Assembly: GCA_964016885.1 (NCBI GenBank)
Contig: OZ024762.1
Span: 21,452,001 to 21,516,000, forward strand
Length of the DNA: 64,000 nucleotides
Reading direction: 5' to 3'
Origin: Eledone cirrhosa
Taxonomy: Eukaryota
Shown here in pieces: positions 29,052-62,168 of this stretch. Numbering within the stretch: the stretch's first letter is position 1; each line of letters opens with the position of its first letter. The position numbers and the translations under genes were made by a program. The notes beneath the pieces are model-generated. The model was not told where the DNA came from, ran no database searches, and worked only from the letters and a program-made list of their open reading frames with translations.

Positions 29052-29116
29052 TATTTCATTATACATATTTCAAGGACACCAAAGCAAATTATGGTTCGCT
29101 TTCATCAGATAAAATA
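29052..29116 (-). ncRNA. Type I hammerhead motif, family E
   Basis: Reverse complement tattttat CTGATGA aag..acca..tggt..ctt GAAA tatgt ATA atgaaata; 8-bp stem I; self-complementary stem III AUAUGUAU. Confidence 0.75.
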
Positions 29117-30649
29117 TTATATAGATCAGTTTTATAAACAAATATTTATAAACAAATATTGACATACCCTTATATCAGTTATAAAAATATTTGCTTGTTG
29201 TATCCCAACAAATTAAATATAACTTCTACACATATATATATATATATATTTATATATGTATACATATATATATATATATTATATATATATATATATATAT
29301 ATATATATATATATATATATATATATATATATATATATATATATATATATATATATATTTATATATGTATACATATACATATATATATATATATATATAT
29401 ATATATATATATATATATATTTATATATGTATACATATACATATATATATATATATATATATATATATATATATATATATATATATTTATATATGTATAC
29501 ATATACATATATATATATATATATATATATATATATATATATATATATATATATATACACACATAAACACACATATATATATATATATATACACCCACCC
29601 ACACACGCACACACATATATACGCGCACACACAAACACATAGGTGTGGGTGTGTTTGTGAGTATACATATTTATATAAATACATAACACACGCATACACA
29701 CATTTTATATTTATGTGTGTGCGTGTTTGTTGTATATATACAAATATGTATACTCACAAACACACAATCACATATATATGCATCTGTGTGTACGTATATA
29801 TATGCATATATATATATGCATATATATATACATATATATAAACATATATATATATAAACATATATATATGTATATATACACATATATATGTATATATATA
29901 TATATATATATACATATATATATATGCATATATATATATATATGCATACATATATATATATATATATATATATATATATATATATATATATATATATATA
30001 TATATATATATATATATACACATATATATATACACATATATATATACATATATATTAATGAAAAAGAGCAAAGGAACTATTATGACATTATAACAAGTTT
30101 ATTGCCGACATATACATATATATATGCATATATATATATACATATATAGATATACTTACATATATATGCATATATATATATACATATATAGATATGCATA
30201 TATATATATATACATATATAGATATACATATATATATATATATATATATATATATAACCGCTACGACATAACGCTCTAAGAAGACAGCATCGCTGGCACT
30301 GTGCGATGCCTAAAGTTACTTTACACGTGAACGCTGAATAATCTTCTGAAACGTCGGCCATATTGCAGTTGTTGTTTCCTCTCAGTGGTTCCACTATTTT
30401 TCTTTTACTACTGGTGACTGACTATGTTTGCTTCCATGGAATATATGTTATATAGACAGACTACAATACACCACCCTCCTAATAACGATTCGGCAATACA
30501 AACTCATTAAACTCACCGAAGCGTCTTAATTTAATACATCTGAACAAAATGTCTATTATATTTTAAAGCTGCGGTATATTTCGTGTAAAACGTCGCGTCT
30601 GCAGGAAAAGATGAAGATAAAGAGATAGATGATAGAGAGGTAGATAGAT

Positions 30650-30867
30650 AGATTTCTGTTTATTTGCCACGAGGGCACAAAAGAAAGGGACATGTACATG
30701 GGGGGGGGGGGGGGGGGTTACATATAAATCGAGTAAGAAAAATGTAATAAATAAAATTGTAACAAGAAGGTCCTCAGTAGGGAGGGATCGTTTTGGGGTC
30801 ATACACACCCCAGAAAAAAAATGTGCGACCCTTCTCCACGGGAGCACAAAGAGAGGGTGCTCCCTTA
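30650..30867 (-). mobile_element. Tx1-type LINE 3'UTR-only insertion in (GATA)n
   Basis: Reverse complement aligns with 1250-1490 (aagggagcaccc..ggtggcaaataaa); GATA repeats on both sides. Confidence 0.8.
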
Positions 30868-31529
30868 GATAGATAGACAGACAGACAGACAGGTAGCTAG
30901 GGAAGACCGTATAGTTGGCAAGAACGAAAAGGTTAAAAGTTGAATTTCTTTTAGAAATTGAACCTGCTTATCAATCCCGAGTGATTTGTTGGGTTGGATA
31001 ATATTTGGCCGATTACTGTTCCAATTATTAGCATTTTATTTGTTCGCGTCAGTTGATTGAAATAGAATTATTAATCTGTAGTGACAGTTAGGTATGGACG
31101 TATTTCGGAAATCAAGTTGCTAATTTTCTCTATGGAATATTGCAGATAAAAAGGGGAATGCATCTAATTATGGATACTGAAGCTTAGCAACGAGTAATTT
31201 GGTATAATGTTAATCAGAATGATATCCGTATTAACACACAGTTTTACACTTTGGTTATCTTTCAAGGTATTAAAGGGACTCTATTAAGATAAAGCTGATT
31301 AGTAAAGGCGGAATGAAGTTAGCATTGAAAACTGAGTTAATTTCGTGTTATTAAACTCTTAAAATAGGTGAAAATATGGAAGAGAGCTTTGAAAATAGCA
31401 TTATTATTATTGTTATTATCATTGTTATTATGTGGCGACATTCCAACAGCAATGATAAAGAAAAGGAAATGGATTTCTTAATTATCTTGAACGAGGCATT
31501 CAATCAACGCGAACGTCCATTACCTGCGT

Positions 31530-31630
31530 GAAGGCACGTGGGTCAGTGGTTAGGGTGGGTGTTCGGCTCACGATCGCCAATTCGTGAGCTCGATTCCCAA
31601 CGGAATATTGCAATAGAATTGCGTCAAGAT
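31530..31630 (+). mobile_element. SINE family 2 head fragment
   Basis: gaaggcacgtgggtcagtggttagg..gagctcgattcc. Confidence 0.6.
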
Positions 31631-32154
31631 GTTTATGGTGCCGTGACAGTAGTCTAAATTTCACTGCTAAACAGATAAATATTACATAGTGTGGCGTCTC
31701 TCTCTTTATTTCTCTCTCGCTGTTTGTAAGAAGATCGAGAATTTTTCTTTTTCTGGTTAACTTAAAATATAAACAGCATGGTTTCATTTTTGTCTTTTAA
31801 ATTTCGATTTGTCTTCATTTGAAAAAATGTTGAAGATGCTGAAGGGATTTCTCCACCTACGTTAAATTCTCTTTAGTGTAATTCAGATGTCAACAATATC
31901 ATAAGAAATACAAAAGTTCATATGAACTGTGATTTATTTCAACCACCATACGTCCCATCGTTACTGTTGACGGCCGAATAGTAAATTTTAAAAAATCAAC
32001 TATTATCATAGAACATAACATGACATCAAAACTGTTCCGTCTCTTTTGTATTTTTATTTTATTTTTTTTTCATTTACGTATTATTCATTCATTTTCTCTG
32101 TACTAAAATAATAAAATGTCGTGGTGTGATGTGATGTAATCGGTTTGTTAGAAG

Positions 32155-32300
32155 ATAGAAGAAGAAGAAGAAGAAGAAGAAGAAGAAGAAGAAGAAGAAG
32201 AAGAAGAAGAAGAAGAAGAAGAAGAAGAAGAAGAAGAAGAAGAAGAAGAAAGAGGAGGAGGAGGAGGAGAAGAAGAAGAAGGGAGAGAGAGAAGAAGAAG
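32155..32300. repeat. (GAA)n/(GAG)n microsatellite
   Basis: Direct reading. Confidence 0.97.
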
Positions 32301-32559
32301 ACAAAACGAGAAGACAGATGAGAGAAAGGATAAAAGACAGAAAAAAAACAGTGGAAGAATTACTTTCCAAAATGAAAGGCTCAGCAAATTAATCTGTTAC
32401 AAGAAACCCTATAACTTTGATCCCATACGATATTAAGCAGAAACCTGTGACATAACGTCTTCAATGATAAATAATAGGCATAATTTATCATTTTCTCTTT
32501 GTTCCTTTACACAATATGTTTTACACAGAATTAACACTAGAAAATGGATGAGTTTGTAT

Positions 32560-32900
32560 TAGTGGGTTGACAGAATGGTTAGAGCGTCGGACAAAATGTT
32601 ATGCGGTGTACAGCTTCGAGTTTCTAAGTTCTGAGTTCAAAAACTATCGAGCTCAACTTTGTCTTTCGTTATTCCAGCGTTGATAAAATAAAATAGTAGC
32701 AGTAAAGAATTGGGTTCGATATAATCGGCTGCTCTCTCCCCACAAAACTATTGGCCTTGTGACTAAATTTGAAACAATTATGTTTGTTAATATTTAGTTT
32801 CGTTTTTTTTTTACATTCTAAGTTGACGTCAACTTTGTCATCCCTTCCAGGTCGATTATAAAATAAAATACCAGTCATGTACTGGGATCGGTATAATTTA
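32560..32900 (+). mobile_element. Old SINE family 1 copies (one near full length plus a partial)
   Basis: ttctgagttcaaa..caactttgtc..gataaaataaa..ttggccttgtg. Confidence 0.65.
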
Positions 32901-60235: not shown

Positions 60236-60396
60236 ATATAATAATAACTCATTACGTATACACTAACGGATATCTGAGACGTAGGGTTGTAATTATTCTT
60301 TGTTCTGAAATCCTGTTTGTTTTGGATTGGCAGAGTCGTTAATACAACCGATAGAATGTATTATGTTCTTTGTTTCGGCTTTATAGATAGATATAT

Positions 60397-60490
60397 TTAT
60401 TGCCTCCTCCTTATTGAGGACGCCTTGTTTTGTAAACTCCCCCCATTGTACTTGTCCCACTTTTGATGCCCTGGTGGCAAATAAAAGAAA
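60397..60490 (+). mobile_element. Tx1-type LINE extreme 3' end
   Basis: Near-identical to 1399-1492. Confidence 0.85.
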
Positions 60491-60761
60491 CATATATATA
60501 TATATATATATATATATATATATATATATATATATATATATATATATATAGATATAGATACATATATATATACATATGTGTGTTTTAGGTAATTCCGAAG
60601 CATAAGCAAAGAAGAAAGAGTGCTCTATGTATAGAACAGAGGTATTTAATTAGAAAGTGAACAACACAAAATATAACTCGTCCATTACCAAAGGTTTCTG
60701 GTCCCTTGTTCGTCATTTTCTAATTATATATATATATATATATATATATATATATATATAT

Positions 60762-61005
60762 AACAAAGGAATTCTGGTAAGGAACTAGATGGACCATAAC
60801 GCACCAGAGTACTCAATACTTAGGGTAGTAGTGTGGGTAATAGGGAAAAAGTATGACCCCGACGGCAGAGTAAAAGCCGTTTCGACGGCTATTTCTGGAA
60901 TAAATTAGAATTTTTAGCCTGGTAAAAAAAAAAAAATTCTAATTTAGTTCAGAAATAGCCGTCGAAACGGCTTGAGCTCTGCCGTCGGGGTCATACAGTT
61001 TCCTA
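60762..61005 (-). mobile_element. Family B copy with the longest fold-back arms
   Basis: Arms ~60843-60915 and ~60931-61003 around a short spacer. Confidence 0.82.
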
Positions 61006-61818
61006 TATATATTTATATATATATATAAATACATACAAATACACACGCACACAAACATACACACACACACATACAACACACATACATCACACATACATAT
61101 ATACACAGACATATATACATATACTTTCATATTGAAAGTCTGCGGTAATGGAACTGGGAAGACCAAAAATCAAAGAAGTACTCGATACACACATACAAAG
61201 AACCACGCATGCACACACTCACACGCACACACTTACAAACACTATACTATTCAGCAGTCAGTGGAAGCAATTATTTCCCAATAAATATTTCTAATCAGAA
61301 TTAGTTGAAGGTTCATTATATTAGAAATGGTGACCAGGGGTTAAAACATATCAAACTAATCGAACTGATTTATAATTTAAGTTGGACACATTAACTTCTG
61401 TCTTATAATTCTATCGATCCTTGTCTGTAATTTCCACCCCTCTCACTCACACTCCTCAAAAATAAACAAAAACAAATAAAAATACAAACAAACAAACAAA
61501 AACACAGAATTAGTATCTACATATATTTGAATATAGTTCGCAGTTACCAGAAAGAAAAAAAAGACTTGAATATAATTTGTATTACTCGTTCTTTTCCGTT
61601 CTCTTCCGTTATTTCCCATTCTACGCCGGTGAGCATATGCTCCTTCCACCCACACATACATACACACACTCACACAAACTCACACACACACACACATATA
61701 TACATATATAAATGTGTGTGTATATATATATATATAAGTTTATCCCGGGTTCAATCGGGGGTAACCACAGTAGGTACTCAACACATAGCAGAGTATAAAT
61801 ATTTAATATAGAAATGGC

Positions 61819-61863
61819 TTCTACAGGACTAGAACTGTTTCATTCGGGAGAAATCATCAGGAA
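61819..61863 (-). ncRNA. Family A hammerhead core with adjacent inversion
   Basis: Reverse complement ttc CTGATGA tttctcccgaat GAAA cag ttctagtc ctGTA gaa; inverted copy 61862-61896 of 61805-61839; element ~61737-61897. Confidence 0.72.
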
Positions 61864-62097
61864 CAGTTCTTGTCCTGCAGAAGCCATTTCTGTATTATAT
61901 ATATATATTTATATATAATATATATATATATATATATATATATATATAATACTGTTATATATATATATATATATATATATATATATATATATAATACTGT
62001 TATATATATATATAATACTGTTAGCTTCTCGCTAAAACAATTTCTATACCTTTCATTTATATATATATATATATTTAGCCTTCATATCATGTTCTCC

Positions 62098-62168
62098 TGT
62101 TTTATCTGATGAAAACACAAATATTATTGCATGATGATGTTTGTTTTTGAAATGCGCATAATAAAATA
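62098..62168 (+). ncRNA. Type I hammerhead motif, family E-like
   Basis: tgttttat CTGATGA aaa c acaaatattatt..gatgatgtttgt tttt GAAA tgcgc ATA ataaaata; stem III is the perfect palindrome ATGCGCAT. Confidence 0.8.

What the first reader, a model, noticed from the sequence alone, without database searches (positions are those of the whole stretch)
29052..62168. Family E hammerheads with palindromic stem III and freely exchanged stem II: predicted obligate dimers
Copies at 29052, 46202 and 62098 share stem I (t[a/g]ttttat with at[a/g]aaata) and an AUA triplet. Their long stem II hairpins are completely different in sequence yet all still pair. Stem III is too short to fold alone and is self-complementary (AUAUGUAU, AUGCGCAU), a compensatory change that keeps the palindrome. 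Dimeric cleavage is established for minimal hammerheads of Penelope-like elements; applying it here is inference.
Basis: partly seen in the sequence, partly recalled or inferred. Interest (0 to 1): 0.75.

Follow-up and report, generated by a model that had tools for sequence, protein, structure and literature searches.

The report
Penelope-end hammerheads with palindromic pairing arm
These are three real hammerhead-shaped RNA motifs, likely left as tail ends of three related Penelope-type jumping-gene families, whose short self-complementary arm is predicted to let two copies pair and cut themselves; that design is already published, and the long arm is inherited with its family rather than swapped between copies.

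Summary
In detail: three type I hammerhead folds at the stated places (3 matches, none in 100 shuffles), with a shared stem I, an AUA triplet and an 8-nt self-complementary stem III that barely closes in a monomer. 'Freely exchanged stem II' is not supported. The flanks of the three copies are as unrelated as their stems II. Reads on two copies show two separate high-copy families in which stem II travels with its flanks and changes mostly by pair-keeping substitutions. All three stems II share one anatomy (3 bp, a C-pyrimidine mismatch, more stem). 'Obligate' is too strong: a homodimer is clearly favoured only for the 62098 copy, and some published 2-bp stems III cut as monomers. The copies end 43-49 nt after the predicted cut at TA repeats, and one is a two-armed inverted insertion. 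A metagenome family with the same stem I follows a Hydra-clade RT-endonuclease ORF. So these are likely truncated ends of Hydra-like Penelope elements; no ORF is linked to these copies. Palindromic, dimer-acting Penelope hammerheads are published, and this scan noted the same kind many times elsewhere in this genome. Low interest.

The parts
29052..29116 (-). h29 type I hammerhead: stem I 29116-29109 with 29059-29052, core CUGAUGA 29108-29102, stem II 29101-29072, GAA 29071-29069, stem III 29068-29061 (AUAUGUAU), predicted cut after 29060; predicted to misfold, likely a decayed copy
29010..29230 (-). short repeat island carrying h29, between a long (TA)n run upstream and a short TA-like stretch about 49 nt after the cut; stem I is predicted to extend well beyond 8 bp
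   Evidence: sequence, constrained fold; family not sampled by reads
46202..46267 (-). h46 type I hammerhead: stem I 46267-46260 with 46209-46202, core 46259-46253, stem II 46252-46222 with C-C mismatch, GAA 46221-46219, stem III 46218-46211 (AUAUGUAU), predicted cut after 46210
46162..46310 (-). arm 1 of the h46 insertion: 5'-truncated element end holding the hammerhead, ending about 47 nt after the cut at a (TA)n run; high-copy family
   Evidence: 2232-2324 reads per run, 2178 contig records
46324..46433 (+). arm 2 of the h46 insertion: inverted piece of the same family's downstream sequence, ending at a second fixed point followed by (TA)n
   Evidence: opposite-strand joint 46160 to 46344 in 36, 62 and 36 reads; TA-repeat loose ends behind 46433 in 290-342 reads
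62098..62168 (+). h62 type I hammerhead: stem I 62098-62105 with 62161-62168, core 62106-62112, stem II 62113-62148 with C-U mismatch, GAA 62149-62151, stem III 62152-62159 (AUGCGCAU), predicted cut after 62160
62076..62203 (+). 5'-truncated element end holding h62, between (TA)n runs, with a fixed 3' end about 43 nt after the cut; high-copy family
   Evidence: 3326-3640 reads per run, 2282 contig records; TA-rich loose ends behind 62203 in 245-388 reads

Best explanation
The three motifs are hammerhead folds at the 3' ends of short inserts in TA repeats, likely 5'-truncated copies of three related but long-diverged Hydra-like Penelope retrotransposon families, and each is predicted to cut its RNA mainly when two same-family copies pair through the palindromic stem III. 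Shown: the folds, the fixed 3' ends at TA repeats, the high copy number of two of the families, the two-armed layout of h46, and inheritance of stem II with its flanks. Inferred: in a full or tandem element the two terminal repeats sit on one transcript, swap stem I strands and form an 8-bp stem III between them, probably helped by the element's protein. Stem II folds within one molecule, so it can drift by compensatory change, while stems I, III and the core stay fixed. The solitary genomic copies here are probably passive remnants without a cis partner.
For: 3 matches against 0 in shuffles. Monomer stem III probability at most 0.002; h62 double fold 11.5 kcal/mol below two monomers. h46 family: the only stem III variant listed gives AUAUAUAU, still a palindrome (18-25% of reads in three runs, 6% of contig depth); the proximal stem II shows one listed variant (G-C to G.U) while the hairpin loop holds six plus indels (53 rows were not shown). 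h62 family: 10 of 12 variants at paired stem II positions keep a pair by themselves; in contigs stem III varies only at 0.04% of depth against 12-54% at three flank positions. Ends in (TA)n 43-49 nt after the cut and an inverted second arm fit Hydra and PLE insertions (PMC8557442). 40 of 119 metagenome loci form a family with the same stem I (selected by the pattern); 22 of 39 hit the RT-endonuclease ORF of the 40th (L051) against 0 of 79 other loci; that ORF carries the CxCX5C linker and RT motifs seen in Hydra proteins.
Against: No RT or endonuclease sequence is linked to these three copies (tblastn of the window negative, best E 4.4) and no genome is held, so the Hydra assignment is indirect. 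All 26 published Hydra rows have an AC...GU stem III of 9-10 nt and a GUH triplet, and stems II of 3-7 bp; these have AU...AU, 8 nt, AUA and longer stems II (counted by eye). The AUAUGUAU duplex is weak (-2.2 kcal/mol) and the h29 homodimer is unfavourable. The three stem III variants listed for h62 all break the palindrome: one is in about half of the RAD reads but in no contig and travels with a pile of read ends, two are at 3-6% from few starts. No RNA data, no cleavage shown, and no pile of copies starting at the cut among the rows displayed.
Confidence: 0.7

Rival explanations
1. Same origin, but the ribozymes act as monomers, stabilised by a tertiary contact (stem I internal loop with the stem II mismatch) or by the element's protein; the palindrome is ancestral or optional.
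For: Invertebrate retrozyme hammerheads with 2 bp plus tetraloop cut efficiently as monomers (PMC7229834 passages). An Anolis Penelope hammerhead cuts only with its protein (PMC11167929 passages). h46 and h62 have a predicted 2x3 internal loop after 8 bp of stem I, and all three have the C-pyrimidine mismatch. The AUAUGUAU duplex is weak.
Against: Both monomer pairs here are A-U or U-A; closing probability at most 0.002. The inner four bases stay self-complementary across families and in the h46 variant, which a monomer loop would not require.
Confidence: 0.15
2. The copies are pieces of non-autonomous, non-coding retrozyme-like repeats moved by Penelope enzymes, not ends of coding elements.
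For: No ORF is attached to any of the three. Animal retrozymes carry type I hammerheads and are proposed to derive from PLE terminal repeats (bioRxiv 10.64898/2026.07.22.740005, abstract and introduction).
Against: None of the three is in a tandem array; the nearest analogue with the same stem I follows an RT-endonuclease ORF.
Confidence: 0.1
3. One reading: one family whose stem II is a module freely swapped between copies.
For: Stems I and III are near-identical while stem II alignment scores are at shuffle level. A minority of h62-family reads (112-167 per run) carry a different distal stem II joined to the same 3' half (loose ends at 62140-62141).
Against: Flanks are as unrelated as stem II. 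Read depth over h46 stem II is 85-95% of its neighbours, and no listed read joint replaces it; one contig skips it. The variant h62 stem II keeps the same proximal part. In the metagenome family stem II distance tracks flank distance (rho 0.58 and 0.41, p 0.001, 32 distinct loci of 40).
Confidence: 0.05

Closest known systems
Hammerheads of Hydra-clade Penelope-like elements (Craig et al. 2021, PMC8557442; section 11, passages and File S1/S2 tables read)
   Same: Type I, near the element's 3' end, insertion in (TA)n, self-complementary stem III with a centre too short to fold (1-3 nt in all 26 rows, at most 2 nt in 23), octopus member described.
   Different: Published rows have AC...GU stem III of 9-10 nt, GUA/GUU/GUC triplets and 3-7 bp stem II; these have an 8-nt AU...AU palindrome, AUA, and a 9-15 bp stem II with a C-pyrimidine mismatch. 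The main text never uses the word palindromic.
PLE hammerheads with small palindromic helix III (Cervera and De la Pena 2014, PMC4209133; parts 1-2 of 4 read)
   Same: Short palindromic helix III, larger than usual helix II, extreme sequence variability between families of one genome, mostly solitary truncated copies, low activity that needs dimers.
   Different: Their assays used a schistosome minimal motif and an elongated Drosophila motif; these variants were not among those I read. Stem I here is longer (8 bp and more).
Penelope-associated hammerhead variants that cleave as dimers (Lunse, Weinberg and Breaker; not held, seen only as cited in the review PMC6765202)
   Same: Dimer cleavage of PLE-associated type I hammerheads with short palindromic stem III.
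   Different: Not compared in detail, because the paper could not be read.
Metazoan non-LTR retrozymes (Cervera and de la Pena 2020, PMC7229834; passages read)
   Same: Type I hammerheads with 1-2 bp helix III and a tetraloop; amphibian ones cut better as dimers.
   Different: Retrozymes are tandem units of 150-450 bp; these copies are solitary.

Membership tests
Type I hammerhead ribozyme | Core CUGANGA and GAAA with an NUH triplet, in type I order | tested here: met
Type I hammerhead ribozyme | Stems I and II can pair next to the core | tested here: met
   8 bp stem I in all; stem II strong in h62, modest in h46, weak and misfolding in h29; pair-keeping variation in reads
Type I hammerhead ribozyme | Match to an Rfam hammerhead model | tested here: not met
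   no hammerhead family listed at E up to 10 for h46 or h62; h29 was covered only by the whole-window scan, of which 150 of 436 rows were shown. Long stem II and tiny stem III lie outside those models.
Type I hammerhead ribozyme | Self-cleavage after the NUH triplet | not testable with these tools
   needs an RNA assay
Dimer-type (double) hammerhead | Stem III too short for a monomer and self-complementary | tested here: met
Dimer-type (double) hammerhead | Double fold favoured over two monomers | tested here: inconclusive
   clear for h62, marginal for h46, not for h29 (nearest-neighbour energies, no tertiary terms)
Dimer-type (double) hammerhead | A partner copy nearby on the same transcript | tested here: not met
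   copies are solitary, 16-17 kb apart, h62 on the other strand; applies to these remnants, not to full elements
Hydra-clade Penelope-like element | Insertion into (TA)n with a fixed 3' end shortly after the hammerhead | tested here: met
   for h46 and h62; h29 by sequence only
Hydra-clade Penelope-like element | Inverted truncated arm with a second end point (PLE insertion signature) | tested here: met
   h46 only
Hydra-clade Penelope-like element | RT plus C-terminal GIY-YIG ORF with CxCX5C linker upstream of the hammerhead | tested here: inconclusive
   absent from the window copies, which are truncated; present in the metagenome family with the same stem I; no genome to find long copies
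Non-LTR retrozyme | Tandem non-coding units each with a hammerhead | tested here: not met
   single motifs at each site

The most novel reading that the evidence does not exclude
Stem I is fixed across diverged families because it does two extra jobs. First, families that share stems I and III (h29 and h46 pair 8 of 8 in all three intermolecular helices) cut each other's RNA in trans, while h62 is insulated by its own palindrome. Second, the cut falls inside an AAUAAA (A17 plus the first five bases of stem I in h46, h62 and 40 of 40 pattern-selected metagenome loci; AAUGAA in h29), about 45 nt before the element's end, so dimer cleavage would destroy the element's own poly(A) signal and switch the RNA between a polyadenylated and a cleaved form. 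The C-pyrimidine mismatch in stem II would replace the usual loop contact.
Probability: 0.1. Interest if true: 0.6.

Novelty: new member of a known kind. Interest (0 to 1): 0.2.

Why it matters
It adds an AU-rich, AUA-cutting, long-stem-II variant to a known class. The natural pair of palindromes (weak AUAUGUAU, strong AUGCGCAU) on an almost constant stem I makes a tidy test set for the open question of whether Penelope hammerheads need dimers, protein help or both. It does not show a new mechanism.

Tried and rejected
Repeat and ORF listings were swamped by microsatellites. A stricter pattern found nothing in viral contigs or prokaryote genomes. Pfam found nothing in the L051 ORF or four window ORFs. 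The look-up of earlier findings by place (near) and by sequence returned nothing. The h62 variant at 62154, in 45-52% of RAD reads, was rejected as a family variant: it is absent from contigs, nearly all on one mate direction, and goes with 1142-1540 read ends at 62151, where it reads like the remnant of an EcoRI site (site recalled); most likely a few loci enriched by the library. C/D snoRNA hits on h62 are far below thresholds and rejected. A shared GGUAUGUC upstream of h29 and h46, which looks like a splice donor, was not tested; shared 8-mers are expected by chance in such windows. RAD depth and summed contig depth were not used as copy numbers. The paper on dimer cleavage by Lunse et al. 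is not held. Supplementary figures of PMC4209133 were not seen and may already show AU-type palindromes.
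Full report
Setting. The window is AT-rich animal-type DNA crowded with (TA)n and other microsatellites. No genome is held. Earlier notes on the same genome call it octopus-like; I did not establish the species.

The observation. A scan for hammerhead cores listed 27 core/GAAA combinations, 11 with a stem I of 4 bp or more; three sites have 8 bp of stem I and a paired base of stem II: 29052-29116 (minus, h29), 46202-46267 (minus, h46) and 62098-62168 (plus, h62). A pattern that leaves stems II and III free matches exactly these three, and none in 100 shuffles. 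An HMM of the three finds no fourth copy. Two distinct 8-mers with fixed ends would both be self-complementary by chance about 0.3-0.5% of the time. Rfam lists no hammerhead for h46 or h62.

Is stem II exchanged? If one family swapped a module, flanks should be shared. They are not: for all 3 pairs, upstream, stem II and downstream alignment scores are all at shuffle level (9 tests, lowest p 0.08). In register from the core, all three stems II have three purine-pyrimidine pairs, a C opposite C or U, then further pairs; h29 and h46 agree in purine/pyrimidine pattern at 19 of 20 positions while only 8 are identical (post hoc, and not significant for h62). That pattern suggests common descent with compensatory transitions. 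Stem II stability differs: z -3.4 (h62), -1.8 (h46), -0.7 (h29, which prefers a hairpin that does not fit the core).

Reads. I laid three RAD runs and one contig set of the same species label on h46 and h62 at 80% likeness; h29 was not sampled. h46: 2232-2324 reads per run and 2178 contig records. Depth over stem II is 85-95% of the neighbouring bins in run X21. Among the 40 variant rows shown (53 hidden), the proximal stem II has one (G-C to G.U), the hairpin loop has six plus indels, and stem III has one, giving AUAUAUAU (18-25% of reads, 6% of contig depth). No listed read joint replaces stem II; one contig skips it. 88-89% of reads run on into unlike sequence, with loose ends at the flanks, so flanks vary more than stem II. 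The 80% filter would hide copies that differ widely, which limits this test. h62: 3326-3640 reads per run and 2282 records. Of 12 variants at paired stem II positions, 10 keep a pair alone (4 of these at U.G sites where either transition does), 1 needs a partner change that is also seen (phase unknown), and 1 breaks a pair. Against my reading: the three stem III variants listed all break the palindrome. One (45-52% of RAD reads, 0 in contigs) goes with 1142-1540 read ends three bases away and is best read as library enrichment; two are at 3-6% from few starts. In contigs stem III varies at 0.04% of depth against 19%, 12% and 54% at flank positions 62169, 62170 and 62179. Also against: 112-167 reads per run join the h62 3' half to a different distal stem II, though the contig consensus keeps the core and the proximal part. 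Neither family shows the other's palindrome.

What carries them. h62 ends in TA repeats about 43 nt after the cut (245-388 reads), h46 about 47 nt after, h29 about 49 nt. h46 is two-armed: reads join 46160 to 46344 on opposite strands (36, 62, 36 reads) and the second arm ends at 46433 in TA repeats (290-342 reads). Craig et al. (PMC8557442; passages, section 11, File S1/S2 tables) describe inverted truncated arms and tails for PLEs and (TA)n targeting for the Hydra clade, including an octopus member. Frangieh et al. (author name recalled; PMC11167929, passages) report two reverse-transcription start sites behind the tail signature.

An outside family. The free pattern gave 119 metagenome loci from 27 of 64 parts of the collection. 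My hand-written filter on stem II and III features picked 40 as one family; 79 look like chance hits. At least 80% self-complementary stem III: 37 of 40 against 4 of 79 (the filter fixed the first two bases and the length, and the 40 are relatives, so this is one lineage, not 40 tests). Locus L051 has a 447-aa open frame ending 159 nt before the motif, with RT motifs matching the Hydra alignments and the CxCX5C linker; Pfam names nothing. 22 of the other 39 family loci hit it, and 0 of 79 others; the window does not. In 32 distinct loci with full flanks, stem II distance tracks downstream (rho 0.58) and upstream (0.41) distance, p 0.001; one downstream type goes with 14 of 16 long and 0 of 16 short stems II. 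So stem II is inherited with its subfamily there too. This family shares stem I by selection and has a different stem III, so it is an analogue, not proof of membership.

Mechanism. In a monomer, closing stem III costs 2.9-3.5 kcal/mol and has probability 0.0002-0.002. The double-hammerhead fold scores -32.7 against -21.2 for two h62 monomers, -21.8 against -20.4 for h46, and -15.4 against -23.0 for h29. The AUGCGCAU duplex is -10.5, AUAUGUAU -2.2 and AUAUAUAU -3.2. h29 with h46 pairs 8 of 8 in stem III; either with h62 7 of 8 and weakly. These energies omit tertiary contacts. All three have predicted extensions of stem I, with a 2x3 internal loop after 8 bp in h46 and h62. I infer dimer cleavage between the two terminal repeats of a tandem or full element, probably protein-assisted, with these solitary copies passive.

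What is known. Cervera and De la Pena (PMC4209133, parts 1-2 of 4) describe PLE hammerheads with small palindromic helix III, large helix II, great variability between families, no monomer activity and low dimer activity for the tested minimal motif. A review (PMC6765202, passages) states the palindromic short stem III and dimer model and cites Lunse et al., which is not held. All 26 Hydra rows of File S2 have self-complementary arms around 1-3 nt (by eye). Against 'obligate': invertebrate retrozyme motifs with 2 bp plus tetraloop cut efficiently alone (PMC7229834, passages), and the Anolis element's hammerhead needs its protein and is dispensable for insertion in vitro. Three literature searches listed no paper whose title or abstract start concerns these AU-type octopus motifs, the stem II mismatch or a poly(A) signal across the cut; I did not search those last two terms directly and did not see the supplementary figures of PMC4209133.

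Earlier scan notes. Many windows of this genome carry the same kind of finding, including the palindrome idea, the C-C mismatch with a UAURUAU palindrome, two-armed insertions and AATAAA near hammerheads. They gave me the Hydra lead and the Craig paper, which I checked; their copy numbers I could not check.

Verdict. Real motifs, known design, wrong on free exchange, overstated on obligate dimers. New member of a known kind; interest 0.2.

Noticed in passing
window:46205-46210 (minus), 62160-62165 (plus): The predicted cut falls inside an AAUAAA made of A17 plus the start of stem I; h29 has AAUGAA there with an AAUAAA a few bases later. The metagenome family has the A form in 40 of 40 loci although the pattern allowed A or G.
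   Followed up: partly
window:61806-61890 (minus); related core matches at 16808, 22693, 55276: A long, nearly perfect hairpin (z -11.3) whose loop holds CUGAUGA and GAAAC hammerhead core pieces; the flanking inverted repeat would lock the core. 4 matches against 0.18 expected.
   Followed up: partly
window:9474, 11318-11376, 17727-17795, 24998-25071, 25235-25303, 60868-60979, 62350: An abundant repeat, 12 matches of a 22-base motif, mostly as head-to-head inverted pairs inside TA repeats, resembling two-armed PLE-type insertions; contains a GAAAC.
   Followed up: no
window:62708-63160 (minus), 41371-41661 (plus): Open frames that look like C-terminal fragments of RTE-type LINE proteins (recalled resemblance; Pfam found nothing).
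   Followed up: partly
window:27707-27764 (minus): tRNA-like Rfam match above the gathering score (36.8 vs 29 bits), possibly a SINE head.
   Followed up: no
window:29161-29168 and 46279-46286 (minus): The same GGUAUGUC lies upstream of h29 and h46 and in a diverged h46-like subfamily seen in loose read ends; it resembles a splice donor or part of the extended stem I.
   Followed up: no
L085 (whole locus): A metagenome locus with two family hammerheads head to head on opposite strands plus partial duplicates of the core between them.
   Followed up: no
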